Source: Delftia acidovorans NBRC 14950 (GTDB lineage Bacteria > Pseudomonadota > Gammaproteobacteria > Burkholderiales > Burkholderiaceae_C). From it: a stretch of DNA of 32,000 bases. Both the position numbers and the translations under genes were made by a program. The stretch spans positions 1 through 32,000 of the forward strand of contig NZ_BCZP01000039.1 of the NCBI RefSeq assembly GCF_001598795.1, given 5' to 3'. Shown here in pieces: positions 11,471-31,990 of the stretch (its first letter is position 1; each line of letters opens with the position of its first letter). A model generated the notes under the pieces. That model saw only the letters and a list, made by a program, of their open reading frames with translations. It searched no databases and was not told the DNA's origin.

Positions 11471-11558
11471 ACGGGAGATGCCCATGCAGATCGCTTTCCC
11501 CTCGCCACGCACCACACGGCCCGGCCCCGCCGCAAGCCGCCGCTGTGCGCTATCCGGA

Positions 11559-11603
11559 CGCTTTCCTGCCCTGGCGGACCCTCTGCGCCATGGCAGGAAA
11601 GCG
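11559..11603 (+). other. Strong intercistronic stem-loop between cpaA and cpaB
   Basis: CGCTTTCCTGCC (11559-11570) pairs perfectly with GGCAGGAAAGCG (11592-11603). After one C/T mismatch, TGGCG/CGCCA adds 5 bp around a 9-nt loop. A competing pairing is GCCCTGGCG (11568-11576) with CGCCAGGGC (11602-11610). There is no U-tract. Confidence 0.6.
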
Positions 11604-11662
11604 CCAGGGCAGCCCCCATGCCTGAACACCGTCGCCACCCACTTGCACCAGGAGCCCCAGCC

Positions 11663-12709
11663 ATGAACCTCACCAAGATTCTTGCCGGACTGTTGGTTGG
11701 GCTGGCCATCGTGCTCGCAGGCCTTGCCTGGCTGCTGGGCAGCCAGCCCGCACGCCCCGTGGCCCAGCCCTCACCGACCGCCTCGGCGCAGCCGGCCCCA
11801 GAGCCCGTGCCGCAGCATGCCGTCGTGGTCGTGGCCCAGGCCATTGCCGCAGGCCAGCGCATCGGCAGCGAGGATGTGAAGCTGGCCCAGCTGCCCGCCC
11901 CCGTACCCGGCAGCTTTGCCGCGACCGATGACGTGCTGGGCCGCACCACGCTGATGGCGCTCACCCCGGGCACTCCGCTTTTCGAGCAGCAACTGCTCAG
12001 CGGCCTGGCCCTGCAGCTGGAGCCGGGACAGCGCGCCCTGGCGATTGCCATCCGGGAGCAGATGGCCGCGGGCCACCATGTGCGCCCCGGCGACTTCGTG
12101 GATGTCTACTTCACGCTGGACGGCAAGTCCGACCAGGCACCCGTGGACGCGCAGACCCGGCTGCTGCTGGCGCGCAGCCGCGTGCTGGCCTACGGCTCCG
12201 GCAGCGTGGAACGCCCACCCATGCCGGCCGTCCAGCGCCAGGCGCAGCAGGACAAGGAATCGGCCGGCTCGTCGCTGCGCCGCGCCAGCGCTGCGGATCA
12301 GACCGGCCAGCGCCCTGAGAACGTGCAATCGGCCGTGCTGGCCGTGCCGCTGGACGATGTGGAGCGCCTCACCCTGGCCGAGAAATTCGGCCAGCTCACC
12401 TTGGCGCTGCGCAACCCGGACGACCTGTCCGTGCCCGATCCCAAGCTCTTCGCCGCCCTGCCCAGCGCACTGCAGCCGGTGGCGGGCCGCCTCCGGAAAG
12501 ACCAGGCACTGGAGGGTGCAGACCGCGCCTTCGCCGGCCTTCGCATGCAGGACCTGGCCACCGGCGCCGACGCCAAGAACATCCGCAAGCCTGCCGCCCA
12601 GCCCATGACGGCCTTCGCACCCGCCGTGCGGCCGCCGCCGCAGCGGGCCCCGCGCGAACGCACCGTGGAGCTGCATAACGGAGCCGCGGTGCAGATGGTG
12701 AACTACTGA
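11663..12709 (+). CDS. cpaB: Flp pilus assembly protein CpaB/RcpC
   Basis: SD aggag lies 8 nt upstream of ATG 11663. It has an N-terminal TM anchor (MNLTKILAGLLVGLAIVLAGLAWLL), a SAF-like segment (VVVVAQAIAAGQRIGSEDVKLAQLP) and a position upstream of the secretin. Confidence 0.85.
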   Translation: MNLTKILAGLLVGLAIVLAGLAWLLGSQPARPVAQPSPTASAQPAPEPVPQHAVVVVAQAIAAGQRIGSEDVKLAQLPAPVPGSFAATDDVLGRTTLMALTPGTPLFEQQLLSGLALQLEPGQRALAIAIREQMAAGHHVRPGDFVDVYFTLDGKSDQAPVDAQTRLLLARSRVLAYGSGSVERPPMPAVQRQAQQDKESAGSSLRRASAADQTGQRPENVQSAVLAVPLDDVERLTLAEKFGQLTLALRNPDDLSVPDPKLFAALPSALQPVAGRLRKDQALEGADRAFAGLRMQDLATGADAKNIRKPAAQPMTAFAPAVRPPPQRAPRERTVELHNGAAVQMVNY

Positions 12710-12734
12710 AAACACACAACAAGAGGGAGATGCC

Positions 12735-14249: not shown

Positions 14250-14253
14250 CGAC

Positions 14254-15801: not shown

Positions 15802-15808
15802 ACGCACC

Positions 15809-17127
<1,319 letters not shown>

Positions 17128-17131
<4 letters not shown>

Positions 17132-18090
17132 CAGGCCTGGCACCCGCCGTCCTCATCCTCGGCGCGCTGGCCTGCCTGCTGCTGGCACTGGCGCTGTGGG
17201 TGATCATGCGCGGGCGCCGCAAGGAGCATGAGCAGTCGATCAACCTGCACATGAAGCGCAGCGTGGACGGCCACCGGGAGGTGATCTCGCCCTCCCCGCC
17301 CATGGCCGAGCCCGCCTTCCGCGCCCCCGCGGCGCAGCCCGCGCCCTCACCCGCTGCCGTGCAGTGGCTGGCCCAGCGGCTGGGCGTCCAGTCCTGGGGA
17401 ATCTCGTCCAACACCCTGGCCCTGTTCGCCATCACCGGCCTGGTGCTGGCCTTGCTGGCGACCAGCCAGGCAGGTGCTGCCGCGGGGCTGGTGGTGGCCG
17501 TGTTGTATGCCGTGGTGCTGGCCTTCGGCATCTGGCGGCGGCAGGCCAAGCGCCGCGAAAGACTGCTGCAGCAACTGCCCGGCTTCCTGGACAACATGGT
17601 CCGCCTGATCTCCATCGGCAACTCGCCCCATGCGGCCTTCCAGATGGCGCTGAACAACGTCCCCGATCCGCTGGGCGACGCGCTGCAGCAGGCGGCGGCC
17701 ATGCTCAGCGCATCGCCCGACCTGGGGCAGGCCATGGGCCAGCTGGAGCGCAACTGGCGCCTGCCCGAATTCGGCCTGCTGGCCGCCGTGTTCCGCATGA
17801 GCGTGCGCTACGGCGGGCGCGCCGACCTGGTGCTGGAGCGTGTCTCGGCCTACATCCGCGACCGCCAGTCCGCCGAGCGCGAGCTGCATGCGCTGTCCTC
17901 CGAGATCCGCATGTCGGCCTGGGTGCTGGCCCTGCTGCCCCTGGTGGTGGGGACGCTGATCATGGTGATCAACCGCGGCTACTTCATGCGCATGTGGAAC
18001 GACGACAGCGGCCAGACCATGGTCCTGGTCGCCGCCGCCCTGGAGGCCCTGGGCGCCTTTCTTCTCTACCGGCTGGCCAAGCTGAGGTGA
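17128..18090 (+). CDS. tadB: Tad pilus inner-membrane platform protein TadB
   Basis: ATGA overlap with the cpaF stop codon. It has an N-terminal TM helix and a T2SS-F-like domain (LPGFLDNMVRLISIGNSPHAAFQMAL...). The track ORF start at 17041 lies inside cpaF and was rejected. Confidence 0.85.
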
Positions 18091-18144
18091 ACCCATGACA
18101 GCACAGGCACAGGCCCACCCATCCGTCTGCGCAAGGAGCCACGC

Positions 18145-19149
18145 ATGACCACGCAGCAACTGTGGATCGCCAGCATCAGCCTGGGCGCGCTGGGACTGGT
18201 GCTGTGGGCCTGCGCCCTGGTGTGGAAGCTGTGGCGCTCGGCCCGTGCCTCCAGCCAGGTCGCCAAGATATTGCAGGCGCGCGATACCGCATCGACCCCG
18301 AAGGCCGCCACGAAGAGCGCCCTGCAGGCCAACGACGCGCAGCTGCTCAACCCGCTGTCCATCAACGTGCGCTCCTCCGATTCGCCACAGGCGGTGGCCG
18401 CCAACCTCCCGCCCCCGGCCTGGCTGCAATGGGGCGTGGCCAAGGCCTTGCTGGCCGATGAGGACCGCAAGCTGCTGGACCAGGCCGGCGTGGGTACGCG
18501 CAACGGCAGCATGGCCTATGTGGCCAGCCGCATGGTGCTGTGCGTGGTCCTGCCCCTGCTGGCGCTGGGTGTGCTGCGCCCCGGCGAAAACGCGGCCCTG
18601 ATCTACGGCTTTCTCGGGGTGAGCCTGGGGCTCATGCTTCCCAAATGGTTTCTGCGCTCGCGGGCCAAGGGCCGGCGCGAGCAGGTGGTCGAGGAACTGC
18701 CGCTGTTCGTCGACCTGCTGCGGCTGCTGCAGGGCGTGGGCCTGAGCGTGGACCAGAGCCTGCAGATCCTGGCCTCGGAATTCAAGAGCGTGCTGCGCGT
18801 CATCAGCGGCGAGCTGGCCCTGGCCAACCAGCTCTACAACAGCGGGCGCACGCGCGAGCAATCCTTCCAGCGCATGGTCAACATGAGCGCCGACGACGAC
18901 ATGAGCGCCATCGTCAACCTGCTGGTGCAGGTGGACAAGCATGGGGGCGCCGTGCAGGAGCCGCTGCGGGAATTCAGCATCCGGCTGCGCGAAAAGCGCC
19001 AGGCCAGCTTCAAGGAAAAGATAGGTTCCATCACCGTCAAGATGACGGGCGTCATGGTCCTCACGCTGCTGCCCGCCCTGCTCGTCATCACGGCGGGCCC
19101 CGGCTTCCTGGCCGTGATCAGGGCATTGACCACCATGGGAGGACGCTAG
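18145..19149 (+). CDS. tadC: Tad pilus inner-membrane platform protein TadC
   Basis: SD aaggag lies upstream. It has a T2SS-F-like domain (ELPLFVDLLRLLQGVGLSVDQSLQIL...) and C-terminal TM helices. Confidence 0.85.
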   Translation: MTTQQLWIASISLGALGLVLWACALVWKLWRSARASSQVAKILQARDTASTPKAATKSALQANDAQLLNPLSINVRSSDSPQAVAANLPPPAWLQWGVAKALLADEDRKLLDQAGVGTRNGSMAYVASRMVLCVVLPLLALGVLRPGENAALIYGFLGVSLGLMLPKWFLRSRAKGRREQVVEELPLFVDLLRLLQGVGLSVDQSLQILASEFKSVLRVISGELALANQLYNSGRTREQSFQRMVNMSADDDMSAIVNLLVQVDKHGGAVQEPLREFSIRLREKRQASFKEKIGSITVKMTGVMVLTLLPALLVITAGPGFLAVIRALTTMGGR

Positions 19150-19151
19150 GC

Positions 19152-20189
19152 ATGCGACACCAGGAAAACACCCACGCAGGGCGGACGCCAGCGCCGGCAC
19201 CCCTTGCAACCCTGGCAGCCCTGGCGACCCTGGCCTTGGCCCTGGCCGGCTGCGCCAGCAAGGGGCCGCAGGGCTACGGCGCCCCTTCCGCGCAGCAGGA
19301 AACCGCCGCCCAGGCCCAGCAGCAATTGCAGAACGCCCAGCAGGCCACCCAGGTGGACAACGCCCAGACCTATCTGGACCTGATCACGCAGATGCAGCAG
19401 GCGGGCCAGTGGTATGCCTCGCTGGCGCACACCGAAGCCTTCGAGCAGCAGTACGGCGTGAACCCGGAGTCGCGCCTGATGCGGGCCGACGCGCTGCGCA
19501 ACACCGGCCAGGTCGAGCAGGCCCGGCAGGCCTACCTGGCGCTGCTGCAGGGCGCCACCACGGCGCGGGCGCGGCGCGGCCTGGGCCTGCTGTACGCAAG
19601 CCAGGGCCAGTATGGCCAGGCCGTGGAGCAGCTGGACAAGGCGCGCCAGCTCAACCCCATCGACGCCAACGTGCTCAGTGACCTGGCCTACGCCCACATG
19701 CTCGACGGCCGGCTGGCCGCCGCGCAGATGCCCATCATGCAGGCCTCGCAACTCGCCCCGGCCAACGCACGGGTGCAGCTGAACATGGCGCTGTTCTGGC
19801 TGGCCAGCGGCAACCAGGCCCAGGCGTCGCAGCTGCTGCGCCAGCTGGCCCAGCCCCAGGCCAAGGGCGCCCTGCCCATGATCGACCAGACCTCGCTGCA
19901 GACCCTGCAGGCACAGCTGGCCAGCGTGCGCGATGCCGTGCGCCTGCGCGGCGACAGCCTGCCCGCAGAGGCCAGTGCCGGTGCCGGTGCCGGTGCCGCT
20001 GTGTCCAGCGCCCCTGTGCTGCCTTCTGTGCTGCCCCCTGCACTACCCCCTGTGCCGACCCTGGGCACCCGCCCCGAAGCACGCGCCACCGAGGCCCTGC
20101 CCGAGACCCTGCCGGCCGGCATCACCCGGCGCATTCTTCTTTCCGAGCCGCCCGGCGCCGCAGGCGCAGCACCGGCCTCGCCACTTTGA
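19152..20189 (+). CDS. tadD: TPR-repeat lipoprotein, TadD-like
   Basis: Lipobox LALAGC|AS. TPR-like helices span aa ~60-250 (YLALLQG..., GLGLLYASQGQYGQAVEQLDKARQLNP, DLAYAHMLDGRL...). There is a Pro/Ala-rich tail. Its position after tadC fits TadD. Confidence 0.72.
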   Translation: MRHQENTHAGRTPAPAPLATLAALATLALALAGCASKGPQGYGAPSAQQETAAQAQQQLQNAQQATQVDNAQTYLDLITQMQQAGQWYASLAHTEAFEQQYGVNPESRLMRADALRNTGQVEQARQAYLALLQGATTARARRGLGLLYASQGQYGQAVEQLDKARQLNPIDANVLSDLAYAHMLDGRLAAAQMPIMQASQLAPANARVQLNMALFWLASGNQAQASQLLRQLAQPQAKGALPMIDQTSLQTLQAQLASVRDAVRLRGDSLPAEASAGAGAGAAVSSAPVLPSVLPPALPPVPTLGTRPEARATEALPETLPAGITRRILLSEPPGAAGAAPASPL

Positions 20190-20199
20190 GGAGCACGAC

Positions 20200-20640
20200 A
20201 TGCCAGACACATACCGCATGGACCCACCGCGCCGCACTGCAGTCGCCAACGCTCTGGCCCCCTGGCTGCTGGCCGCCGGCCTGGCCCTGCTTCCCACGGC
20301 CGCGCTGCATGCCCAGGCCTTTGGCGAAGTGCAGAGCCCGCCCGAGCAGGTGGACGCACGGCCCCATGTGTTCGCCGAGCCCTCCACCGACTCCATCCTG
20401 GTCGGCTACACGCTCTACACCAACCCCGATGGAACCGTGATGTACCTGCCCCGGCGCGAGATCGACATCGGCGGGGGCACCCTGCGGCTGCTGGAAATGC
20501 AGCACAGCCAGCCGGGCCAGCGTGCGCGCCCCATCGCGGGCGAGCAGGCGCGGCGCAGCTATGCGCGCTACCTCAAGAGCTTCGAGACGGAAATCCCCGC
20601 CCTGTACAAGACCGGCGTCGAAGCCGGCGGCAAGAACTGA
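20200..20640 (+). CDS. Small secreted protein of unknown function (DUF3613-like tad-locus accessory protein)
   Basis: SD gaggag precedes ATG 20200. The signal peptide is ...LLAAGLALLPTAALHAQA. The segment ARRSYARYLKSFETEIPALY resembles my memory of the DUF3613 motif seen in Burkholderiales tad loci. That assignment is unverified. Confidence 0.5.
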   Translation: MPDTYRMDPPRRTAVANALAPWLLAAGLALLPTAALHAQAFGEVQSPPEQVDARPHVFAEPSTDSILVGYTLYTNPDGTVMYLPRREIDIGGGTLRLLEMQHSQPGQRARPIAGEQARRSYARYLKSFETEIPALYKTGVEAGGKN

Positions 20641-20673
20641 GGCCGGCCCCGGCCACGGCTTGCAGGAACGACC

Positions 20674-21189
20674 ATGACCCGGCTCCAACCCCGCGCTCAC
20701 CGCTCCCACCGACCTGCCAGCCTGCGGCAGCGGGGGGTGTATGCGCTGGAGTGGGCCATCATCTTCCCGGTGTTCTTTGCCCTGCTGTATGCCTGCATCA
20801 GCTACGGGCTGGCGTTCCTGGTGCGCGAATCCATGCAGGCCGCCGCCGAAGACGCCGCGCGGGCCACGCTGCGCTACCAGACCAGCCGCACCGCCCGCCT
20901 GGACGCGGCCCGCAGCCTGGTGCAACAGCGGCTCGACTGGCTGCCCGCCGACCTTCGGCCCACGGCTGGCAGCATCGACGTGCGCATCTGCAGGCTGCAG
21001 AACAGCGAACTGTGCTCGGCCACGCTGACCTGCGGCGTGCTGGTGGCCGAACGCTGCATGGTGCGCGTGGGCTTCACCATCCCTTATGGAACCAGCCCGA
21101 TAGCGCCCGCCCTGCCGGGCTTCGGCCTGGTCATGCCCACCACGTTGACGGCCAGCGCCAACATCATGGTGGACAGGGGGGGGCTATGA
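20674..21189 (+). CDS. tadE: TadE-like pseudopilin
   Basis: The N-terminus RGVYALEWAIIFPVFFALLYACISYGLAF matches the TadE/TadG N-terminal hydrophobic motif (G..A.E.A...P). Confidence 0.8.
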   Translation: MTRLQPRAHRSHRPASLRQRGVYALEWAIIFPVFFALLYACISYGLAFLVRESMQAAAEDAARATLRYQTSRTARLDAARSLVQQRLDWLPADLRPTAGSIDVRICRLQNSELCSATLTCGVLVAERCMVRVGFTIPYGTSPIAPALPGFGLVMPTTLTASANIMVDRGGL

Positions 21190-21338
21190 GATACCCCCTG
21201 AGCGGCTGCGCCGCTTCCCCCTTGAAGGGGGACGACACCCTCGCTGCGGGGCGGCGCGGCCGGCTTAGGCCCTTGCTCGGGGTCCCTGGGTTGGGGCATG
21301 CCATGCGTGGGGCACGCCCTGCTGCATCGGCCGAGTTC

Positions 21339-21821
21339 ATGCAGGACACCGGCGATACCTTCGCGGCAGGGCTGCACAGGCGGCAGCGCGGCGTGGCGGC
21401 GGTGGAGTTCGCGTTGATCGCCGGGGTGATGGTGATGCTGCTGATGGGCATGTTCGTGTACTGGCGCGTGCTGCAGGCCCAGCAGTCGCTGGCGCGTGCC
21501 ACGGGCGATGGTGCGCGCATGGTCCAGCATCTGGCGTTTGGCGGGATGGCGGGCTACAACCCGGCCAAGCCGGCCGAACGCGCCAACATCCTGCAGGCCA
21601 CCAGCGATGTGGTGAACCAGAGCCTGGCGGCCAGCGGCATTCCAGCGGGCACGGCGCCCACCCAGATACAGATCAACTGGGGCACTTCCCAGGCCACGCT
21701 GAGCGTGGTCTACATGCTTCCCCCCGTGCTGGGCCAGGGCCTGCAGGTGGGCAGCCAGACCTTGGGCGAACCCACGCGCCTGGAGTCCCGCAGCCTGATC
21801 AGGCTTGCGCCCGGCAGCTAG
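21339..21821 (+). CDS. Second TadE/TadF-like pseudopilin
   Basis: RGVAAVEFALIAGVMVMLLMGMFVYW is a TadE-type N-terminus. The start is ambiguous between ATG 21339, ATG 21303 and ATG 21186 (ATGA overlap with the previous gene, preceded by aggggggg). The stretch 21186-21338 has poorer codon usage (aga, agg, ttg x3, ggg x6), so I favour 21339. Confidence 0.68.
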   Translation: MQDTGDTFAAGLHRRQRGVAAVEFALIAGVMVMLLMGMFVYWRVLQAQQSLARATGDGARMVQHLAFGGMAGYNPAKPAERANILQATSDVVNQSLAASGIPAGTAPTQIQINWGTSQATLSVVYMLPPVLGQGLQVGSQTLGEPTRLESRSLIRLAPGS

Positions 21822-21837
21822 ACAGGAGGACCAGAGC

Positions 21838-24114
21838 ATGCTCACCCACCTCCCCGCATCCGCACACCGCCCCCGAACGCGCCGGCAAGGGCGCCGACAA
21901 GGGCGCCGGCAAGGCGGCAGCCTGCTCGTGCAGTTCGCCCTGCTGGGCTCGGTGCTGTTCCTGTTGCTCGGCGTCGTGGACCTGGGCTACATGTACTACG
22001 CCAAGCGCGACCTGCAGCGCATTGCCGATCTGGCGGCCACCCAGGCGGCCCAGACCATCAATGCCGAGCGCAGCAACCGCGCCGCCTGCGTGACGGCGGG
22101 CGAGGATAGCATCACGGCCAACTGGCCGGTTCCGCTGACCCGCAACAGCACCCAGACCGTGGTCAGCTGCGGCAACTGGAACCCGGCGGACCCGGCCAGG
22201 CAGTCCAGCGGCGGCCGCTTCTTCGACGCCAGCTCCGGCCCGCTCAACGCGGCGCGCGTGACGGTGGGCGGCACCTCGCCCACCATCTTCCCCGGCCCCT
22301 GGAGCCGTGCCGTGGTGGCCGAGGCCATTGCCATGCGCAACGACTCGGTGGCGTCCTTCCAGGTGGGCTCGCAGCTGCTGCGCTTCAACAAGGACACGCC
22401 GCTGGGCGGGCTGCTGGGCCTGGTGGGGCTGGACGTGGGCATGCTGACCCTGCTGGACTCCAAGGGCCTGGCCGATGCCAAGATCAGCCCGGCCGGCCTG
22501 CTCAAGGCCCTGGGCGTGAACCTGGGCATAGAGCAGCTGCGCGCGCTGTCGCCCGAGGGCCTGGCCAACATCGCCAGCGTCACCCTGCTGAACGTGATCG
22601 ACGCCTCCATCAGCGCCATCACCGACAACGCGCTGGCCGTGCAGCTCAATGCGCTCAAGACCCAGATCATCAACGCGGGCCTGAGCACCATCAAGATCCC
22701 GCTGGGCAGCCTGGACGACCAGAAGGGCCTGTTCGCCTTCCTGGGCGCCGGCCGCACCGATCCGCTGAACGCGGCCATGGACGTGCAGCTGGGCATTGGC
22801 GACCTCTTGAAGACGGCCATTGCCATCGGCGCCAACGGCCACGCGCTGCAGGCCAACCAGCTGGATGTGGCCGGGCTCATCAAGGGCCAGCTGACCATCG
22901 TGCAGCCGCCCACCATTGCCGTGGGCCCCGTCGGCACGCAGGGCTACAGCGCGCAGATCCGCCTGAACCTGAACGTGGACACGGACCAGCTGCTGGGCGG
23001 CGCACTCAAATGGCTGGTCAAGGACATCCTGGGCACCCAGGTCAAGCTGCCCATTGCCGTGGACATCACCAACGCCACGGGCACGCTGACGGCGCTGCAA
23101 TGCAGCGCCAGCCCGCAGACCATGGACCTGTCGGTCAAGTCCTCCATCCTCAACGCCTGCGTGGGCAAGATGGACCCGGCCAACAAGCAAAGCTGCGAGA
23201 AGGGCCTGCAAAATGAGCAGCTCATCACCCTGCTGCACCTGCCCGTGCTGAACGGCAAGCTGTGGGTGCCGGCCCTGGAGTACACGGACTCCACCACGGG
23301 CCTGGGCATGGAGCCGGGCTACGAAGATCCGGCCGACCCCAACTGGTCCAAGACCAACCGTTCCACGCAGGTGAACCAGCTGGCGCTGGGCGACACGGTC
23401 AACAACATCGTCACGGGACTGCTCAACCTGCTCAGCGGCCTGCTGCAGCCACCGAACAGCACGCCCACCGACATCACCACGCGCCTGCTGGGCTCCTACC
23501 TGGACGCCTCCATGGTGAACGGGCTCTACAACGTGACCAGCCTCACCAACCTGCTGCTCAGCGGGCGCGGCGTGGCCGGCGACAAGGACTACATGCCGCC
23601 GCTGCTCACGTCCAACTTCACGTTCAACAACGCCATCGCCAAGTCCTGCCTGCTGGTGGCCTGCCCGTCCTCCACCTGGCCCAGCGGCACGTTCTCGGCC
23701 GCCCTCAACTCCTACACCAGCGTGCCCGGCGGCCTGCTGGATGTGCTGGGCATCTCCACCTACGACAACGGCTACCAGAGCTGCGCGGGCCTGCTCAGCT
23801 CGCTGCTCAACTGGAATGGCTGCGTCAAGAACAACGTGACCAAGCTGCTGACCTCGCACCCGCAGTACCTGTACACGATCAACCCGAACAGCCCCGAGAT
23901 CCAGTCCCTGCTCAACCGCGACAACAACCTCACCTGCACCGGCGCCCTGTGCACCCTGCTCAAGCCGCTGGTCACCACCGTGCTCAAGCCCATCCTCAAC
24001 GGCGTGGGCACGCTGCTGACCAGCGTGCTCAAGGACACGCTGGGGCTGGAGGTGGGCCGCACCGACATCAAGGCCCTGTCCATCGGCTGCGACACGGCGC
24101 AACTGGTTTTCTGA
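21838..24114 (+). CDS. tadG: TadG-like large pseudopilin or tip-associated protein
   Basis: SD aggagga precedes ATG 21838. The N-terminus [42 protein letters not shown] matches the TadE/G-like 'Tad' N-domain. The remaining ~700 aa are rich in L/N/T/G and I cannot name a domain in them. Confidence 0.75.
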
Positions 24115-24164: not shown

Positions 24165-25559
24165 GTGAATCTGGACGAGCTCGTCATCTATGTCTGGGAA
24201 GGCCAGGCCGATATCGCCGAGCGGGTGGAGCGCTGCGTGCTCAACCTGGGCGTGGACGTGGTGCGCGCCGACGGGCTGACCCTGCCCGCCGACACCAGCG
24301 AGCTGGGCAATGCGATTGCCGTGGTCAGCGTCTCGGTGCTGGAGGGCGCGCGCTTCACGCGCCAGGGCGTGGAGGGCACCTTCGGCATGCCCGTGCTGTG
24401 GGTCAGCGCCAAGCAGCGCGACGCCAACGCCGGCACCTATGCCATGGAGTACTCGCATGTGCTGCCCTTCGACTTCACGGGGGCCGAGCTGCGCGCCATG
24501 CTGGTGCGCATCCTGCGGCGCATGCAGAGCAACCAGCGCCAGGTGCAGCGCTCGGAGGACATCATCGCCGTGGCCGACTGCATGCAGCGCCTGCTCCGCG
24601 ACGTGGATACCTTTGCCGACTGCGAGCACAGCGTGCTCATCATCGGCGAGACCGGCGTGGGCAAGGAGCGCATTGCCGAGCGGCTGCACGAGCGCAACAA
24701 CCGCTACGGCCAGGGCCCCTTCGTGGTGGTCAACTGCGGCGCCATCCCGGACGGGCTGTTCGAGTCCCTGTTCTTCGGCCATGCCAAGGGCTCGTTCACG
24801 GGCGCGGTGAATGCCCACAAGGGCTATCTGGAGCAGGCCAACGGCGGCACGCTGTTCCTGGACGAGATCGCGGACCTGCCGCTGTACCAGCAGGTCAAGC
24901 TGCTGCGCGTGCTGGAAGAGCGCGCCATCACGCGGCTGGGGTCGGCCGCCGCCGTGCGGCTGGACTTCCGGCTGGTGGCGGCCACCAACAAGCCGCTGCG
25001 CGGGCTGGTGCGCGAGGGGCGCTTCCGGGCCGACCTGTTCTTCCGCCTGGCCGTGATCGAGCTGCAGATCCCCAGCCTGGAGGAGCGCGGCGAGGCCGAC
25101 AAGCTGGCCATCTTCCACGCCATCCTGCGCAAGGTGGTGGGCGAGGCCACGATGAAGGAGCTGGGCGAGGCGCCCTTCTTCATCCTCGACGCCGTGGCCC
25201 AGATGTACTTCCCCGGCAATGTGCGCGAGCTGCGCAACCTGGCCGAGCGCATCGGCGTGGCCGCCCGCCAGACGCGCGACTGGAACGCCGACGGCGCCAC
25301 GCAGCGCATCCTGCAGCACGCCCAGGCCCTGTCGGCCACCACCCTCCCGCCGGACGCCGGCGCCGCCGAGCCCCTGCTGGCCGACCGCAGCAACTGGGAC
25401 ATGGACGAGCGCAACCGCATCATCGCGGCGCTCAACACCAAGGACTGGAAGCGCCAGAACACGGCCCAGCACCTGGGCATCAGCCGCAAGGTGCTCTGGG
25501 AAAAGATGCGCAAGTACCAGATCAGCGACGGCGAGCCCGAAGTGCCCGTGCCGGGCTGA
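24165..25559 (+). CDS. Sigma-54-dependent transcriptional activator (bEBP) with an atypical N-terminal domain
   Basis: GTG 24165 is preceded by gaggga. The AAA+ core is [35 protein letters not shown] (GAFTGA-type loop) and [13 protein letters not shown]. The C-terminal Fis-type HTH is [20 protein letters not shown]. The N-terminal ~125 aa lack the DD...D...K receiver signature. Confidence 0.88.
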
Positions 25560-25594: not shown

Positions 25595-26869
25595 ATGGAG
25601 ACTTCCACGAACATGCAGGACAAGCCGGTCATCATCTTCGTCAGCGCCGTCTACCCCAGCCAGTACAGCCTGCTGTGCAGCCACCTTCGCGCCAGCGGCG
25701 CGGCCGACAGCTGGTTCATGACCATGCCCGGCCATGCCGAGAACTACGCGAGCCAGTGCGACCACCTGCTGTCGTTCCGGCCCGATGGCGACATCGTCGG
25801 CCCGCAAAGCTACTACTACTCCAGCAAGGTGGAGCGCTCGGCACGCATAGGCCGCGGCCTGCTGCAGGGCCTGCAGGCCTTCGAGAAGGAAAAGGGAAAA
25901 CGCATCGACGTGGTGGTCGCCCACTCGCTGTGGGCTGCGCCCAACCTGCTGTACGGCGAGATCGATGCCGCCATCGTCAGCTACATCGAATTCCCCAGCT
26001 ACCGCGTGCACGGCAACGAGCCCGACTACCCGCCCGACCTGTCCCAGCGCCTGGCCGACCGCAACATGGAAATGCTGCACTACCACCAGGTGCTGTGCAG
26101 CGACCTGACCATCACGCCCAGCGCCCATGCGCGCTCGCTGTTCCCGCCGCTGCTGCAGGAGCGCGTGGCCGTGCAGTTCGAGGGCTTCGACATCCAGGCT
26201 CCCGACGAGCAGGCCGAGCCGCCGCCGCGCCAGGACACGCGCTTCACCGTGGCCTTCTCATCGCGCGACCTGTCCAGCTCCAAGGGCTTCGAGACCTTCA
26301 TGCGCCTGGTCGATCGACTGGTGCGCGAGGGCGATGGCCAGCAGATGCGCTTCATCGCCCTGGGCGACCCCACGGCCGTGACCTACGGTTACGAACAGCA
26401 GTGGGTGGAGCGCCGCTACCAGGGCAAGGTGGCCAGTTTCCGCGACCATCTTCTGCAGATCCACCCGGCCGCCCAGGTGGTGGAGTTCCCGGGCAAGCTG
26501 CCGTATGACGAGTTCGCGCGCACGCTGGCCTCGGTGGACCTGTTCCTCTATCCGCTGCGCTACGGCGTGGCCAACTGGGGATTGATGGAGATCCTGGCGC
26601 GCGGCGGCTGCGTGATCGGATCGAACTGGGGCTTTGTGCCGGAGCTGGTGCAAAACGATGTCAACGGCCTGCTGCTGCCCGACAGCGACGACGCCTGGAT
26701 AGGCGCCATCCGCCAGCTGCGCGACGACCCGGCCCGGCGCCAGCGCTACGGCCGGGCCGCGCGCGAGACGGGCAAGCGCTTTCACATCTCCAACGTGGCC
26801 CCGCGCTTCATGGACCTGTTCCGCCTGGCCATGGCGCGGCGCAAGGCCGCCCCGCTGATGCTGGAGTGA
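25595..26869 (+). CDS. GT-B fold glycosyltransferase (GT4/GT1-like)
   Basis: The C-terminal half is FPGKLPYDEFARTLASVDLFLYPL...WGLMEILARGGCVIGSNWGFVPELVQNDVNGLLLP, which matches the pattern of retaining GT4 enzymes. The alternative start ATG 25613 is 6 codons downstream. Confidence 0.78.
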   Translation: METSTNMQDKPVIIFVSAVYPSQYSLLCSHLRASGAADSWFMTMPGHAENYASQCDHLLSFRPDGDIVGPQSYYYSSKVERSARIGRGLLQGLQAFEKEKGKRIDVVVAHSLWAAPNLLYGEIDAAIVSYIEFPSYRVHGNEPDYPPDLSQRLADRNMEMLHYHQVLCSDLTITPSAHARSLFPPLLQERVAVQFEGFDIQAPDEQAEPPPRQDTRFTVAFSSRDLSSSKGFETFMRLVDRLVREGDGQQMRFIALGDPTAVTYGYEQQWVERRYQGKVASFRDHLLQIHPAAQVVEFPGKLPYDEFARTLASVDLFLYPLRYGVANWGLMEILARGGCVIGSNWGFVPELVQNDVNGLLLPDSDDAWIGAIRQLRDDPARRQRYGRAARETGKRFHISNVAPRFMDLFRLAMARRKAAPLMLE

Positions 26870-26945: not shown

Positions 26946-28385
26946 TCAGGCCCGCGCCCGCAGGAAAAATCCCGTGCCCATGCCGGTCTCGGCGGCCGAC
27001 ACCTCGGCTCCACCAGACACGGTGGAGGCCGCCACAAGAGCAGACATGCGCTCCATGCCGCTCCAGCTCAGGGCCATGTCCAGCTCGTCGCCGTCCTGCA
27101 CCTCGGTCGCCTCCAGCACCTCCAGCACGTCTTCCACGCGCACCACCTGGTCCAGCAGGCCATGCAGCGAGGGCCGGGCGATGAAGAAGCCCTGCGCGCC
27201 ATGGGCTCCCGCCAGCGCCACGGCCTCCAGGCCCTGGGCGGACTCGATGCCTTCCACGATCACGCAGGCGCCCCGGTCGGCGCACAGGCTGACCAGGCCC
27301 TGCATCATCCGGGCCGAAGGCCGGGCCTGCAGGCTCTGGTCCAGCACGGACTTGTCGATCTTGACGATGTTGGCGCGCAGCTTGCCCAGAATGTCCAGGC
27401 CGCAGCGCCGGGGCACGATGTCGTCCAGCGCCACGCGCACGCCCAGGATCTGCAGGTGCCGCACCAGGCCCAGCGCGGCCTTCTCGCAGGGGAAGGCGCC
27501 GGTCTCGGTGATCTCCAGCACCAGGCGCTGGGCGATCTCGGGCCGGTCCTCCAGGTAGTCGAACACGCCATCCCACCAGGCGTCGTCGCAGAACGAGGCG
27601 GCCGACAGATTGCAGCCCAGGCTGTGGCCGGTCTTCATCTCCAGCGCGCCTATCATCGACCACAGCACGCTGCGGTCCAGCCGCGCGGCCAGGCCCAGGC
27701 GCTCCAGCGCCTCGATGGCATGGGGCACGGCATAGTTGTCGTAGGCAGAGAACACGCTGCGGCGCAGCAGGCACTCGTGGTAGAGCGTGCGGCCCGCGCC
27801 GGCCCCACTGCCTCCACCTGCCATGCCTGCGGGCTCCAGCAGCGTCACGGGCTGGAATGCCAGCGCCAGGTGGCCCAGCCGCAGATCGTCCAGCAGGCGG
27901 CCCGCCAACTGCATGTCGGCCTGGTAGGCCTTGATCAGCCTGGGGTGCATCCTGCGCACCGCCATGTCCTGGACGCCCGCCGTGGCGTGGCCCTTGCCGC
28001 GTATCTCATGCAGGCCCGTCAGGGAGACGCAGCCCAGCGCCTGCACCTCGGCGCGCAGATAGGCCTGGCGCGCGCCGTCCACCACCGGGTCGCGCACCAG
28101 GGCGGACTCCAGCGCATGCATCCAGCCATGCCGGGCCTGATTGCCGGGCAGCACCGTGTCAGCCATCGTGCGGGGATCGAACCCCCGAACCAGCACCGTG
28201 TCGCCCGCACGCTCCAACGATTCGGCATCGATGCCCAGGCCCGTGAGCCGCTCCACGCAGACCCGCATGGCCTCCTCGCAGAAGCCGTTGCCGTAGACGC
28301 TGCGCCAGGTCTGCAGGGGCGACAGCCAGATGGCCAGGTCCACGGGGGTGTCGCCGGGCGGAGCTTCGATGATGTCGTCGTGCAT
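26946..28385 (-). CDS. EAL-domain c-di-GMP phosphodiesterase with an unknown ~190-aa N-terminal domain
   Basis: The EAL catalytic set is recognisable: YHECLLR (E-x-L-x-R), CNLS, LEITE, ALDD, KIDKS, VEGIES, AQGFF. I prefer the ATG at 28385, which has a perfect aaggag SD 6 nt upstream, over the ATG at 28400. Confidence 0.88.
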   Translation of the reverse strand: MHDDIIEAPPGDTPVDLAIWLSPLQTWRSVYGNGFCEEAMRVCVERLTGLGIDAESLERAGDTVLVRGFDPRTMADTVLPGNQARHGWMHALESALVRDPVVDGARQAYLRAEVQALGCVSLTGLHEIRGKGHATAGVQDMAVRRMHPRLIKAYQADMQLAGRLLDDLRLGHLALAFQPVTLLEPAGMAGGGSGAGAGRTLYHECLLRRSVFSAYDNYAVPHAIEALERLGLAARLDRSVLWSMIGALEMKTGHSLGCNLSAASFCDDAWWDGVFDYLEDRPEIAQRLVLEITETGAFPCEKAALGLVRHLQILGVRVALDDIVPRRCGLDILGKLRANIVKIDKSVLDQSLQARPSARMMQGLVSLCADRGACVIVEGIESAQGLEAVALAGAHGAQGFFIARPSLHGLLDQVVRVEDVLEVLEATEVQDGDELDMALSWSGMERMSALVAASTVSGGAEVSAAETGMGTGFFLRARA

Positions 28386-28400
28386 GGTGTGCTCCTTCAT

Positions 28401-28946
28401 TCAACGGCCTGCAATGGGTTGTGAATAGCAGTGAAATCCGATCGCCCTGCGCCCCCGGCCCGTGGGCCCGCCGCCGAGCACGCCGGCATCCACGGCCGAC
28501 AGCGCCAGGTCCACATGGCCGGCCACCAGGTCAAAGACCACCGAACAGGCATCCGCCTTGCGGCTGAAATACGCCAGCGTGGCGTCCGTGCCACCAGCGA
28601 AGCTGCCCAGCAGCGCCTGCCCGTCCTGCTCCTGGAACACGGCCTGCGCGCCCCCCTGCTGGGGCACGATGACGCGGTCGCCCTGCTGCAGCACGGCGCC
28701 GGCCTGGGCCGCGATCACGTCATTGCGCCGCACGATGCGCACGCCCTCGCTCACGCGCGTGAGCAGCGCCACCGGCGCCGTCTGCGCATGAAGGCTTCCG
28801 TCGCCCGCCTCCCGCGCAGGGGTGCGCGGCACGGCGGCAGACGCAAACGAGGCGGGCACGTTCAACGGCTTGCTGCGCGCCCTGTCAGGGCTGGTGCGCA
28901 GTCGCGACAGGGCCACGCCTGCAAGCGACAACGAGAGAGCGGCCAT
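28401..28946 (-). CDS. FecR-domain-like protein (putative signal peptide), first gene of the sigma-54-dependent operon
   Basis: I chose the ATG at 28946, which is preceded by ggaggag. The longer track ORF (start 29084) would contain the sigma-54 promoter. The pattern GVRIVRRNDVIAAQAGAVLQQGDRVIVPQQGGAQAVFQEQDGQALLG resembles the FecR domain consensus. The family call is tentative. Confidence 0.55.
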   Translation of the reverse strand: MAALSLSLAGVALSRLRTSPDRARSKPLNVPASFASAAVPRTPAREAGDGSLHAQTAPVALLTRVSEGVRIVRRNDVIAAQAGAVLQQGDRVIVPQQGGAQAVFQEQDGQALLGSFAGGTDATLAYFSRKADACSVVFDLVAGHVDLALSAVDAGVLGGGPTGRGRRAIGFHCYSQPIAGR

Positions 28947-29034
28947 GGTTTCTCCTCCGAAAGACTGCGATCGATGGGGCGGGTGGCGCAGCGCCCGGTT
29001 TTCCAGACACTGCGACAAGCTTTTTGCATCCTGT

Positions 29035-29050
29035 TGCAACAAGCGTGCCA
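29035..29050 (-). promoter_or_regulatory. Sigma-54 (RpoN) -24/-12 promoter
   Basis: The minus strand reads caTGGCACGCTTGTTGCAac, an exact match to TGGCACG-N4-TTGCW with canonical GG/GC spacing. It lies about 90 nt upstream of the ATG at 28946. Confidence 0.78.
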
Positions 29051-29087
29051 TGGGCCTGGACGTCTTCATCCAACGCAAAGCCATCTG

Positions 29088-29100
29088 TAACCTATTGATT
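29088..29100 (-). promoter_or_regulatory. IHF-consensus site between the putative UAS and the sigma-54 promoter
   Basis: The minus strand reads AATCAATAGGTTA, which fits WATCAANNNNTTR at every constrained position. It is preceded by the A/T tract CCAAATAA and lies about 40 nt upstream of the -24 element. Confidence 0.5.
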
Positions 29101-29128
29101 TATTTGGACACCCAAGCACAGCTGCCAC

Positions 29129-29187
29129 CATGTCACCCCACGGCGTTACGGGCGATGTCACGTAACGCCTGCGCGCCACGGCGTTAC
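29129..29187. promoter_or_regulatory. Repeat/palindrome cluster, candidate bEBP upstream activating sequence in the divergent intergenic region
   Basis: CCACGGCGTTAC occurs twice (29138-29149 and 29176-29187). GGCGTTAC (29142-29149) is inverted as GTAACGCC (29162-29169). ATGTCAC occurs twice (29130-29136 and 29155-29161). The cluster lies 80-150 bp upstream of the sigma-54 promoter. Confidence 0.45.
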
Positions 29188-29246
29188 TTTCGCAGCGGCC
29201 GCGCAGGACGACGCGGCCCTGGCTGCCAGGCGCGGCCCCCCTTTCG

Positions 29247-30643
29247 GTGTATGTTCCAGCGCATCACTTTCAGGAGCCGGCCCTGTCCCCGCAAAAGTCC
29301 ATCCAACGGGATCTGGTGATCCTCTGGCTCACCATCTCGGCCGTCGCCCTGGTGCTGGCGTGGCTGCTGCTGCTGCTGAGCCGGCAGGGCACCGACCAGC
29401 AGGTTTCCCGCGCCCGCGACGCCGCAGGCGTCAGCTGCAGCGCACTGCAGGCCGGGGCCGCGCGCATGGGGCTGGCGGGGCTGATGGCGGACACGCCCAG
29501 CGCACAGGCCCGGTCCGCCGCGCAGGCCGTGCTGGACCTGGCGCTGCGCGAGCGCCCCGGCATGGAGGGCGGCTTCTGGCGCGAGGGCCCCGGCGTGGTG
29601 GCCTATGCGTTTCCCACCTATGACGGCTCGGGCATCAAGCGCGATGCGCCCAGTGCGGAGATGGAGCGCATCACCTCCACCGCCCAGCGCGCGCGGGACA
29701 GCGCAGGCCTGGTGACCGACCTGCGCCCCGGCCTGCGCGAGGCGGTGGTCTTTGCCGCCTGCCCGGCCCAGGCGGACGCACCCGGGCTGGTGGCCTGGAC
29801 ACTGATGCGCGTTCCCCTGATCAGCGCCGACGTGGTCAACCCCCTCATCCTTGCCGTCAGCCTGCTGCTGGGCATGGTCCTGGTCTCGGGCCTGTGGCTG
29901 GGCAGAATGCTCCGGCGCTGGCAGCGGCAGTCGGCACAGATGGAGCAGCAACTGCTCAGCGCCGAACGGCTGGCCACCCTGGGCAGGCTGTCCGCAGGCC
30001 TGGCGCACGAGATCCGCAATCCGCTGGGCACCATGCGCATGAAGGCCGAGACCGCGCTGGCAGCGCCCGCGCCACTGCGCGAAGCGCGCAGCCTGGGCGC
30101 CCTGGAGGCCGTGCTGGCCCAGACCGCGCGCCTGGAAGACCTGGTATCGAGCCTGCTGGCATTGACCCAGCCCTTCCGGGTGCAACCGGAGCCGGTGGAC
30201 CTGCAGCAGTTGCTGGACGAAAGGCTGCAGGCACATGCCGAGCTGGCCCAGGCCAGGGGTGTGCAACTGGCAACGGCAGTGTCCGCCGGCCTTGCCCGGG
30301 ACCTGCAGGATGGGCGCCGCCCGCTGCTGGACACCGTGCAGATGGCCAGGGCGCTGGACAACCTGCTGCTCAACGCACTGGCGCACACGGCGGCCGGCGG
30401 CCGGGTGGAACTGGGCGCAGATCGCGGCGCCCACCGCAACAGCCCGCTGCAACTGTGGGTGGCAGATGACGGCACGGGCATTGCGCCCGAGCTGCGCGAC
30501 ACGCTGTTCGAGCCCTTCACCACCGCGCGCCCCGGCGGCACCGGGCTGGGATTGGCGCTGGTGCGCGAAATCGTGCTGGCCCATGGCGGCCGCATCGCGC
30601 TGGGCAAGACAACACAAGGCACACGCATAGAAATGGAATTTCC

Positions 30644-30659
<16 letters not shown>
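29247..30659 (+). CDS. Sensor histidine kinase (two TM helices, periplasmic loop, HisKA + HATPase_c)
   Basis: TM1 is ILWLTISAVALVLAWLLLLL and TM2 is LILAVSLLLGMVLVSGLWLG. The H-box is LSAGLAHEIRNPLG, the N-box LLLNALAHT, G1 DDGTGI and G2 GGTGLGLALV. The start is uncertain (ATG 29247 or GTG 29316). Confidence 0.9.

Positions 30660-31990
<1,331 letters not shown>

What the first reader, a model, noticed from the sequence alone, without database searches (positions are those of the whole stretch)
28947..29246. Textbook but unannotated sigma-54 promoter architecture (UAS repeats, IHF site, -24/-12) in the divergent region between the EAL operon and the kinase/regulator pair
Three elements are arranged in the order expected for a bEBP-activated promoter on the minus strand:
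- TGGCACGCTTGTTGCA (29050-29035), an exact match to the TGGCACG-N4-TTGCW consensus
- AATCAATAGGTTA (29100-29088), 40 nt further upstream, which fits the IHF consensus WATCAANNNNTTR and is preceded by an A/T tract
- a cluster 80-150 nt upstream of the promoter: a direct repeat CCACGGCGTTAC (x2), its inverted partner GTAACGCC, and a duplicated ATGTCAC

This is the geometry expected for bEBP-dependent looping. It also settles the start of the downstream gene at ATG 28946 rather than 29084. Two sigma-54 activators are encoded nearby, at 30644-31990 (with a cognate kinase) and at 24165-25559.
Basis: partly seen in the sequence, partly recalled or inferred. Interest (0 to 1): 0.62.

Follow-up and report, generated by a model that had tools for sequence, protein, structure and literature searches.

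The report
Conserved sigma-54 promoter of adhesion island
This is a real, evolutionarily conserved sigma-54 promoter with an activator-binding array and an IHF bending site, and comparative genomics suggests it is switched on by the activator encoded in the neighbouring Tad-pilus/adhesin island, not by the two-component pair next door.

Summary
All three elements are present at the stated coordinates on the minus strand:
- -24/-12 box, 29050-29035
- IHF site, 29100-29088
- upstream repeat cluster, 29145-29187

They are not chance. The same three-part layout precedes every homologue of the downstream gene's domain found in related genomes. Most of those homologues are the N-termini of giant secreted adhesins.

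The enhancer-plus-promoter pattern occurs in exactly the 12 of 60 relatives that carry an ortholog of the orphan activator at 24165-25559. That gene always follows tadG. It is 58% identical to PDB 7VBS, which is probably Burkholderia cenocepacia GtrR.

The adjacent kinase/regulator pair is an inserted module. It carries its own promoter and a different enhancer (TGTCCG...CGGACA), and it sits elsewhere in the closest relative.

The start codon at 28946 is supported.

Verdict: a genuine member of a textbook promoter class. The added value is a predicted binding motif and a two-promoter regulon for a GtrR-type activator. An earlier follow-up in this scan reached a similar reading on another genome.

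The parts
29035..29050 (-). Sigma-54 -24/-12 element TGGCACGCTTGTTGCA. GG lies at 29049-29048 and GC at 29037-29036. The predicted transcription start is near 29024.
   Evidence: It is an exact consensus match. It is one of 8 such matches in the genome. An equivalent box lies upstream of all homologous genes in relatives.
29088..29100 (-). IHF-type site AATCAATAGGTTA, with an A/T-rich 5' flank.
   Evidence: It starts 50 nt upstream of the T of TGGCAC. An exact WATCAANNNNTTR match in the same orientation lies 50-52 nt upstream in 8 of 21 related promoters, and at 39 nt in one more. The background rate is 0.08 per kb. An IHF-alpha gene is present.
29145..29187 (-). Upstream activating sequence. 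Read on the minus strand it is GTAAC (29187-29183), N16, near-palindrome GTTACGTGAC (29166-29157), N7, GTAAC (29149-29145).
   Evidence: The palindrome starts 116 nt upstream of TGGCAC. The array is conserved in 21 promoters. It is the second-best genome-wide hit of a matrix trained on other genomes. It co-occurs exactly with orthologs of the orphan activator.
28952..28958 (-). Ribosome-binding site GGAGGAG, 5 nt before ATG 28946.
   Evidence: Read directly from the sequence.
28401..28946 (-). First gene of the operon. It encodes a 181-aa protein with a disordered N-terminus and an all-beta core (residues 59-151). The core is homologous to the N-terminal domain of giant secreted adhesins.
   Evidence: It has no Pfam or NCBIfam hit. 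The best fold match is 5IX9, 'cell surface anchoring domain', and that match is weak.
26946..28400 (-). Second gene, directly abutting the first. It encodes a 484-aa protein with an unassigned N-terminal domain of about 165 aa followed by an EAL domain.
   Evidence: Pfam EAL, E 2.3e-35. Orthologs were found only in G005 and G028 among 60 relatives.
24165..25559 (+). Proposed cognate activator. It is an orphan sigma-54 enhancer-binding protein (GSFTGA loop, Fis-type HTH, receiver-like N-terminus without an acceptor Asp) encoded directly after tadG.
29247..31990 (+). Histidine kinase (29247-30659) and response-regulator activator (30644-31990). This is an inserted module with its own downstream promoter, and it is probably not the activator of this promoter.

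Best explanation
**What it is.** The region is a genuine sigma-54 promoter. It transcribes a two-gene operon on the minus strand: a small protein that resembles the N-terminal domain of giant adhesins, followed by an EAL-domain protein.

**How it most likely works.**
- Sigma-54 RNA polymerase sits at the -24/-12 box (29050-29035) as a closed complex.
- An activator oligomer assembles on the GTAAC / GTTACGTGAC / GTAAC array about 95-140 nt further upstream.
- IHF bends the DNA at 29100-29088, bringing the activator to the polymerase.
- ATP hydrolysis by the activator opens the promoter. Transcription starts near 29024, giving a leader of about 78 nt.

**Which activator.** The most likely one is the orphan GtrR-type enhancer-binding protein at 24165-25559, the last regulatory gene of the Tad pilus / type I secreted adhesin island. 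In this genome the same protein should also drive the giant adhesin gene at the end of contig C3, giving a predicted two-promoter adhesion regulon.

**Shown versus inferred.**
- Shown: the sequence elements, their conservation, their rarity, and their co-occurrence with the activator gene.
- Inferred: binding, looping, the transcription start and the signal.
- Speculative: feedback on cyclic-di-GMP signalling through the EAL protein. The analogy is that B. cenocepacia GtrR is reported to work in complex with the EAL protein RpfR.
For: **1. The promoter is conserved.** Every homologue of the small protein's domain in relatives has a -24/-12 box 60-90 nt before its start codon. This holds for orthologs and for giant adhesin genes with open frames of about 820-1,900 aa. 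Each also has the GTTACGTAAC-centred array 92-146 nt upstream. Nine of 21 promoters have an IHF consensus at a fixed position, and the others are A/T-rich there.

**2. The enhancer tracks the orphan activator.**
- The composite pattern GTTACGKRAC-N85-150-TGGCAY-N5-TTGC occurs in 12 of 60 relatives. The reversed control pattern has 0 hits.
- Those 12 genomes are exactly the 12 that have a >=79%-identical ortholog of the orphan activator.
- Wherever both lie on one contig, the activator gene is within 3-40 kb of the target.

**3. The association extends beyond the genus.**
- G177, with an 82%-identical activator, has the same kind of array and promoter before an adhesin-domain gene.
- In a Paraburkholderia genome the 60%-identical ortholog also follows tadG. 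A GTTAC / GTAAC / GTTACGTTAC array plus TGGCATGGCTTGTGCA lies beside the tad cluster.

**4. Genome-wide specificity.** A matrix trained on other genomes finds only two strong sites in this genome: this one and the giant-adhesin promoter.

**5. The basal machinery is present.** The genome has two rpoN genes and an IHF-alpha gene. No sigma-70-like promoter is detected in the region.

**6. The neighbouring two-component pair has a different target.**
- Its orthologs occur in only 6 genomes, and 4 of those lack the enhancer.
- In G005 it lies on another contig, while the operon keeps its promoter.
- It carries its own TGTCCG-N27-CGGACA enhancer and promoter immediately downstream of the regulator gene. 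This is seen in 4 of its 6 host genomes and nowhere else.
Against: - There is no transcript, binding or mutant evidence.
- The co-occurrence is partly expected, because the activator and its proposed targets lie in one island. It shows linkage, not binding.
- Only two candidate activators were compared. The genome holds many other enhancer-binding proteins.
- G010 has a homologue of the small protein but neither the activator nor the enhancer pattern.
- The exact composite pattern was not found in five more distant genomes that carry 50-82%-identical activators. A looser look recovered one of them.
- The flp pilin genes of the island show no -24/-12 box.
- The identification of PDB 7VBS as GtrR rests on length, termini and locus, not on a cited paper.
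Confidence: 0.7

Rival explanations
1. The divergently encoded kinase/response-regulator pair (29247-31990) is the activator. The intergenic region would then be a classic divergent two-component-system target, as with zraP-zraSR.
For: - The enhancer lies only about 60 nt from the kinase gene start.
- The regulator is a complete sigma-54 activator with a receiver domain.
- An earlier first-reader note read the module as bracketed by two outward-facing promoters.
Against: - Orthologs of the regulator are missing from 10 of the 12 genomes that carry the enhancer-plus-promoter pattern.
- In G005 the pair is on another contig. The operon's divergent neighbour there is an endonuclease gene, the same gene that follows the inserted module here.
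- The pair carries a different, conserved enhancer (TGTCCG...CGGACA) and promoter downstream of the regulator gene.
Confidence: 0.1
2. Both activators, or a further unlinked one, act on this promoter. For example, the inserted two-component module may have been recruited secondarily in this lineage.
For: - The insertion placed the kinase gene right beside the enhancer.
- The core here is GTTACGTGAC, one mismatch from the palindrome, and the same is true in G005, which also has the pair.
Against: - No TGTCCG/CGGACA-type element is visible in 28947-29246.
- In G005 the pair is unlinked to the operon.
Confidence: 0.12
3. The motifs are chance matches or non-functional relics. The operon would then be transcribed from an unrecognised sigma-70 promoter.
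For: No expression data are available. Simple consensus scans can miss promoters in high-GC genomes.
Against: - All three elements are conserved in order and position across orthologs and paralogs in 14 genomes.
- They are rare genome-wide.
- Reversed-pattern controls give 0 hits.
- No sigma-70-like site is present.
Confidence: 0.03

Closest known systems
IHF-assisted, enhancer-dependent sigma-54 promoters (for example glnHp2, nifH, Pu of the TOL plasmid, norV with its three NorR sites)
   Same: - A -24/-12 box with exact spacing.
- An IHF site about 40-50 nt upstream of the box.
- An array of several activator half-sites about 100-150 nt upstream.
- The activator belongs to the NtrC/AAA+ family and has a Fis-type HTH.
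   Different: - The half-site sequence (GTAAC/GTTAC pentamers around a 10-bp palindrome) did not appear as a bacterial enhancer in the searched literature.
- The target genes are adhesion and cyclic-di-GMP genes.
GtrR (BCAL1536) of Burkholderia cenocepacia, the enhancer-binding-type regulator that works with the PAS-GGDEF-EAL protein RpfR (PMC12838280, PMC8174753; Yang et al. 2017 PNAS, not held)
   Same: - The proposed activator is 58% identical over its full length to PDB 7VBS.
- 7VBS is about 80-83% identical to the 463-aa Burkholderia-clade proteins encoded after tadG.
- GtrR is 463 aa, lies in the Flp locus BCAL1520-1537, and its cloning primers encode matching termini.
- An EAL protein is functionally tied to the regulator in both cases.
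   Different: - Here the EAL protein is a target gene product with an unrelated N-terminal domain. It has not been shown to be a partner.
- I found no published GtrR recognition motif or sigma-54 target promoter.
- Whether this genome has RpfR was not tested.
c-di-GMP-responsive enhancer-binding proteins that control matrix or adhesin genes (FleQ of Pseudomonas; BerB of B. cenocepacia, PMC5552954)
   Same: - An activator without a phosphorylatable receiver controls surface-adhesion genes.
- There is a link to cyclic-di-GMP signalling.
   Different: - Nothing here shows that the activator binds c-di-GMP.
- FleQ matches only across the AAA+ core.
- BerB sits by the bep polysaccharide genes, not the tad locus.
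LapA/MpIBP-type adhesin retention (cell-surface anchoring) domain
   Same: - The small protein's beta core is homologous to the N-termini of giant adhesin genes that lie in the same island as a type I secretion system.
- Its best PDB fold match is 5IX9, 'cell surface anchoring domain'.
   Different: - The fold match is weak (E 0.35, TM 0.52 on the target).
- No hit of any kind, including any retention-module model, appeared in the NCBIfam or Pfam scans.
- The protein is stand-alone and has no repeat region or secretion signal.

Membership tests
Sigma-54 (RpoN)-dependent, enhancer-activated promoter | -24 GG and -12 GC separated by exactly 10 nt within a TGGCAC-N5-TTGCW context | tested here: met
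   TGGCACGCTTGTTGCA lies at 29050-29035. It is one of 8 exact matches in the genome.
Sigma-54 (RpoN)-dependent, enhancer-activated promoter | The organism encodes sigma-54 and at least one enhancer-binding protein with the GAFTGA-type loop | tested here: met
   Two rpoN genes score above the curated cut-off. Both nearby activators match Sigma54_activat. The orphan activator has GSFTGA at residues 209-214.
Sigma-54 (RpoN)-dependent, enhancer-activated promoter | An upstream activating sequence about 80-150 nt from the promoter, conserved with the promoter | tested here: met
   The array lies at 29145-29187, with the palindrome starting 116 nt upstream. It is conserved in 21 promoters and is specific genome-wide.
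Sigma-54 (RpoN)-dependent, enhancer-activated promoter | An IHF site between enhancer and promoter (accessory feature, not universal) | tested here: met
   There is an exact WATCAANNNNTTR match 50 nt upstream. The same position and orientation are seen in 8 of 21 related promoters, with one more at 39 nt. The himA gene is present.
Sigma-54 (RpoN)-dependent, enhancer-activated promoter | A transcription start about 12 nt downstream of the GC, with expression dependent on rpoN and an activator | not testable with these tools
This needs 5'-RACE or dRNA-seq and mutants.
GtrR-type (tad-linked) enhancer-binding protein regulon | The activator is orthologous to GtrR / PDB 7VBS and is encoded directly after tadG | tested here: met
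   - It is 58% identical to 7VBS over 458 aa, E 5.6e-176.
- The same gene order is seen here and in Paraburkholderia.
- That 7VBS is GtrR itself is inferred from length, termini and locus.
GtrR-type (tad-linked) enhancer-binding protein regulon | The enhancer motif co-occurs with the activator gene across genomes | tested here: met
   The two sets of 12 genomes are identical, 0 of the other 48 have the pattern, and the reversed control gives 0 hits. G177 and a Paraburkholderia genome add support.
GtrR-type (tad-linked) enhancer-binding protein regulon | Direct binding of the activator to the GTAAC/GTTAC array, and control by an EAL-protein partner or c-di-GMP | not testable with these tools
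   This needs EMSA or footprinting and interaction assays.
Divergent two-component-system target promoter (zraP-zraSR type) of the adjacent kinase/regulator pair | Promoter and enhancer travel with the kinase/regulator genes across genomes | tested here: not met
   - Regulator orthologs occur in 6 genomes, and only 2 of these have the enhancer.
- The pair is unlinked to the operon in G005.
- The pair has its own distinct enhancer and promoter.
LapA/MpIBP-type retention module (for the small protein) | Sequence or fold match to the N-terminal anchoring domain of type I secreted adhesins | tested here: inconclusive
   - Neither NCBIfam nor Pfam gives a hit.
- It is homologous to the N-termini of giant adhesin genes.
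- The top Foldseek hit is 5IX9, but only at E 0.35, probability 0.77.

The most novel reading that the evidence does not exclude
The GTAAC-N16-GTTACGTAAC-N6/7-GTAAC array could be the previously undefined DNA recognition element of the GtrR family. These are tad-linked enhancer-binding proteins with an aspartate-less receiver domain, found across Burkholderiales.

The element would define a compact, conserved adhesion regulon made of a giant secreted adhesin plus accessory operons.

In this Delftia-like lineage the regulon has also captured an operon encoding a free copy of the adhesin's anchoring domain and an EAL protein. That would give the activator a cyclic-di-GMP feedback arm, analogous to (but wired differently from) the RpfR-GtrR complex of B. 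cenocepacia.
Probability: 0.35. Interest if true: 0.6.

Novelty: new member of a known kind. Interest (0 to 1): 0.45.

Why it matters
- **Annotation.** It fixes the gene start at 28946 and the operon structure. It also assigns a promoter and a likely regulator to two unannotated genes.
- **A testable motif for a studied regulator family.** It gives a specific DNA motif and a very small predicted regulon (two promoters in this genome). The regulator family's studied member, GtrR, is described as a global virulence and biofilm regulator in Burkholderia cenocepacia. I found no published binding motif or sigma-54 target for GtrR.
- **A link between three adhesion functions.** It places giant-adhesin expression and an EAL (cyclic-di-GMP) operon under an activator encoded in the Tad pilus island.
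- **A caution for annotators.** Assigning an enhancer to the nearest activator gene can mislead when a regulatory module has been inserted next to it.

Tried and rejected
- **Family scans.** Pfam and NCBIfam scans of the small protein, and of the giant adhesin N-termini, gave no family.
- **Literature on the motif.** A search for GTTACGTAAC returned only unrelated primers and oligonucleotides. Searches for the PDB codes 7VBS and 7VBW found no describing paper. Yang et al. 2017 (PMC5724260) and PMC8863054 are not held.
- **BerB as the ortholog.** I considered this and set it aside. BerB sits by the bep genes, whereas this family follows tadG.
- **More distant genomes.** The exact composite pattern gave no hits in five more distant genomes with 50-82%-identical activators or in the Paraburkholderia genome. 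A looser inspection found variant arrays (GTTACGTTAC) in G177 and Paraburkholderia. G091 showed nothing convincing.
- **Pilin genes.** No sigma-54 box lies in front of the flp pilin genes.
- **RNA elements.** Rfam found nothing in 28850-29300, and the 5' leader folds no better than shuffled sequences (z -1.0).
- **EAL protein as a universal partner.** This was rejected. Its orthologs occur only in G000, G005 and G028.

Full report
**1. Observation**

Read on the minus strand, the 300-bp intergenic region contains three elements:
- TGGCACGCTTGTTGCA at 29050-29035.
- AATCAATAGGTTA at 29100-29088, with an A/T-rich 5' flank.
- A repeat cluster at 29130-29187.

The genome is 6.63 Mb and 66.7% GC, and these elements are rare in it:
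- The strict -24/-12 consensus has 8 exact matches on both strands. My own base-composition estimate gives about 1.5 expected.
- GTAACGCC has 33 copies in the genome, and three of them sit in this 45-bp stretch.
- No sigma-70-like promoter is detected between 26800 and 29400.
- Rfam finds nothing in the region, and the leader has no unusual fold.

**2. Genes around the promoter**

| Coordinates | Strand | Product |
|---|---|---|
| 2-1342 | + | C-terminal end of a Gly-rich giant protein |
| 1425-5277 | + | OmpA-like and MurF-like proteins |
| 5377-10348 | + | Type I secretion ABC, MFP and OMF components |
| about 10455-10860 | + | Two flp pilin genes |
| about 10867-24114 | + | tad/rcp cluster, ending in tadG |
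| 24165-25559 | + | Orphan sigma-54 activator |
| about 25600-26869 | + | GT4 glycosyltransferase |
| 26946-28400 | - | EAL protein, 484 aa |
| 28401-28946 | - | Small protein, 181 aa |
| 29247-30659 | + | Histidine kinase |
| 30644-31990 | + | Receiver-type sigma-54 activator |

The small gene and the EAL gene abut each other on the minus strand.

ATG 28946 is the supported start of the small gene:
- GGAGGAG lies 5 nt upstream of it.
- ATG 29084 lies upstream of the -24/-12 box.
- Full-length homologues are 169-191 aa long.

**3. Conservation**

I searched 60 relatives with the small protein. Its beta-rich core was found in 13 genomes:
- as small proteins in G005, G010 and G031;
- more often at the N-terminus of open frames of about 820-1,900 aa;
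- including a paralog in this genome at the end of contig C3.

Of the 16 homologue loci, 13 carry a -24/-12 box upstream of the gene; the exceptions are the G010 small-protein locus and the two weakest matches.

Aligning these upstream regions on the box shows a common architecture:
- A palindrome, GTTACGTAAC, lies 92-146 nt upstream of the box. Here it reads GTTACGTGAC.
- The palindrome is flanked by a GTAAC-like half-site about 16 nt further upstream and by (C)GTAAC 6-7 nt downstream.
- An A/T-rich segment lies between the array and the box. In 9 of 21 promoters it holds an exact IHF consensus in the same orientation. Eight of these start 50-52 nt before the box, and one starts 39 nt before it.
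- The background rate of the IHF consensus in the same loci is 0.08 per kb.

The conserved units, however, are GTAAC/GTTAC pentamers. The distal ATGTCAC copy is not conserved.

**4. Which activator?**

*The orphan activator tracks the enhancer.*
- Orthologs at >=79% identity occur in exactly 12 of the 60 relatives. Wherever both lie on one contig, the gene is 3-40 kb from the adhesin-domain gene.
- The composite pattern GTTACGKRAC-N85-150-TGGCAY-N5-TTGC occurs in exactly the same 12 genomes. It has no hits in the other 48, and the reversed control pattern has none anywhere.

*The neighbouring response regulator does not.*
- Its orthologs at >=75% identity occur in only six genomes: G000, G005, G011, G025, G027 and G034. 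Four of these lack the enhancer.
- In G005, the closest relative with the syntenic small-protein/EAL operon, the kinase/regulator pair is on a different contig. The operon's divergent neighbour there is a non-specific endonuclease gene.
- In this genome the same endonuclease gene lies just beyond a block made of the kinase, the regulator, a secreted protein, a DMT transporter and an MFS transporter. That block therefore looks like an insertion.
- The pair has its own promoter, TGGCATGGCACTTGCA, at contig position 32128. It comes with an IHF-like site and a different inverted repeat, TGTCCGAT-N23-ATCGGACA.
- That layout is repeated downstream of the regulator gene in G005, G025 and G034, and is found in no genome that lacks the regulator.

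The two enhancer types therefore partition cleanly between the two activators.

*Genome-wide specificity.*
- A weight matrix was built from the 19 sites in other genomes and scanned across this genome.
- The adhesin promoter on C3 scores 30.7 bits and this site scores 25.0 bits. The next unrelated hit scores 15.9 bits.
- The predicted regulon in this genome is therefore two promoters.

**5. Reach beyond the genus**

- In a 200-genome sample of the family, eight genomes other than this one (seven of them in other genera) have an ortholog at 50-82% identity.
- The strict pattern missed all five of these that I tested.
- Inspection of G177 (82% identity) found GTTACGTTAC-N7-GTAAC-N7-GTAAC, then TGGCACACATGTTGCA, in front of an adhesin-domain gene.
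- Proteins about 60% identical and 463 aa long are common in Paraburkholderia, Burkholderia, Caballeronia and Trinickia.
- In one Paraburkholderia genome the gene again directly follows tadG.
- In that genome a GTTAC-N11-GTAAC-N14-GTTACGTTAC array and TGGCATGGCTTGTGCA lie beside the tad cluster. They drive a Gly/Ser-rich lipoprotein gene.

**6. Identity of the activator**

- The activator matches PDB 7VBS/7VBW ('Sigma-54 dependent transcriptional regulator', 465 residues) over its full length. The E-value is 5.6e-176, with 58% identity over 458 aa.
- 7VBS is 80-83% identical to the 463-aa Burkholderia-clade proteins.
- B. cenocepacia GtrR is BCAL1536 (PMC12838280). It lies in the Flp locus BCAL1520-1537 (PMC3417382) and is 463 aa long (PMC8174753).
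- Its cloning primers encode MRNTPA... and ...TRESE, which match the termini of the family.
- I therefore take 7VBS to be GtrR or a near-identical ortholog. This is an inference; I found no paper describing the entry.
- According to PMC12838280, GtrR forms a complex with the PAS-GGDEF-EAL protein RpfR, and c-di-GMP lowers the complex's binding to target promoters.
- The N-terminal 125 residues of the protein here have no Pfam or NCBIfam match. By my reading of the sequence, they have no aspartate where a receiver's phospho-acceptor would sit.

**7. The operon's products**

*Small protein.*
- It has a disordered N-terminal part of about 55 residues and a confidently modelled all-beta core. The core spans residues 59-151 with pLDDT about 90 or higher; the mean pLDDT of the whole model is 72.7.
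- The best PDB fold match is 5IX9, 'cell surface anchoring domain'. The match is weak: E 0.35, probability 0.77, TM 0.52 on the target.
- Together with the sequence homology to giant-adhesin N-termini, this makes a stand-alone copy of an adhesin anchoring domain a reasonable but unproven reading.

*Paralogous giant gene on C3.*
- It continues from this domain into a hydrophobic segment and PTNPTN repeats. These run off the contig end.
- Contig C39 starts inside a Gly-rich repeat protein.
- The two may be halves of one gene, as the gene order in relatives suggests. This is not shown.

*EAL protein.*
- Its orthologs occur only in G000, G005 and G028.
- The operon is therefore a lineage-specific addition to the regulon. 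The EAL protein is not a universal partner of the activator.

**8. Mechanism and confidence**

The best-supported model has four steps:
- The GtrR-type activator oligomerises on the pentamer array.
- IHF bends the intervening DNA.
- The activator remodels the sigma-54 closed complex at 29050-29035.
- Transcription starts near 29024.

Confidence by part:
- The promoter is real: about 0.9.
- The orphan activator is the cognate one: about 0.75.
- The two together: about 0.7.
- A c-di-GMP feedback role for the EAL protein is speculation by analogy with RpfR-GtrR.

**9. Novelty**

- The kind of element is textbook.
- The new points are the specific motif, the very small adhesion regulon, its attribution to a GtrR-family activator, and the correction of the 'nearest regulator' assumption.
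- An earlier follow-up in this scan, on another genome, reported a conserved palindrome of a pilus-locus activator in front of a giant adhesin gene. That agrees with this reading.

Noticed in passing
Contig C39 32039-32143 (39-143 nt beyond the window end; locus L018 540-644): A second sigma-54 promoter, TGGCATGGCACTTGCA, has its own inverted-repeat enhancer TGTCCGAT-N23-ATCGGACA and an IHF-like site (GAAATCAATAACTTG on the minus strand). It lies just downstream of the response-regulator gene and drives a secreted protein of about 226 aa, then DMT and MFS transporters. The layout is conserved with the regulator in G005, G025 and G034.
   Followed up: yes
G000 contig C3 383450-384601 (L019/L022): A paralogous promoter carries a perfect GTTACGTAAC array, an IHF site and TGGCATGCATGTTGCA. 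It drives a giant protein with an N-terminal beta domain, a hydrophobic segment and PTNPTN repeats that run off the contig end. Contig C39 starts inside a Gly-rich repeat protein, so the two may be one adhesin gene broken by the assembly.
   Followed up: partly
G000 contigs C33 11801-13381 and C20 80385-81905: The genome has two rpoN (sigma-54) genes, both above the curated cut-off. Which of them serves this promoter is unknown.
   Followed up: no
L024 (G030), L025 (G029), L026 (G008), L038 (G033): In four relatives a second promoter with the same enhancer lies about 3.2 kb upstream of the giant adhesin gene. In G030, the one locus examined, it drives an unannotated protein of about 480 aa or more with no Pfam match.
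   Followed up: partly
window about 10455-10860: Two tandem flp pilin genes have near-identical leaders (..TTTTGCAA(A)CCGAAAGGAC..ATG). Neither shows a -24/-12 box or a GTAAC array, so the pilus genes themselves do not appear to belong to the activator's direct regulon.
   Followed up: partly
L048 2610-2816 (Paraburkholderia, G259 contig C47 about 944610-944816): A GTTAC/GTAAC/GTTACGTTAC array and TGGCATGGCTTGTGCA lie next to the tad cluster. They drive a Gly/Ser-rich lipoprotein gene. This suggests the same activator-motif pairing in Burkholderiaceae.
   Followed up: partly
L003 (G010 contig C36 about 73062-73433): A 52%-identical homologue of the small protein sits in a genome where neither the orphan activator nor the enhancer pattern was found (genome 95% complete). 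Its regulation must differ, or the island is unassembled.
   Followed up: no
window 29145-29187 versus related loci: The distance from the palindrome to the -24 box falls into classes (106-107, 125-127, 130-131, 136-137, 141, 146 nt). Most classes differ by roughly whole helical turns. This hints at face-of-helix phasing, but many of the sites are orthologs and so are not independent.
   Followed up: no
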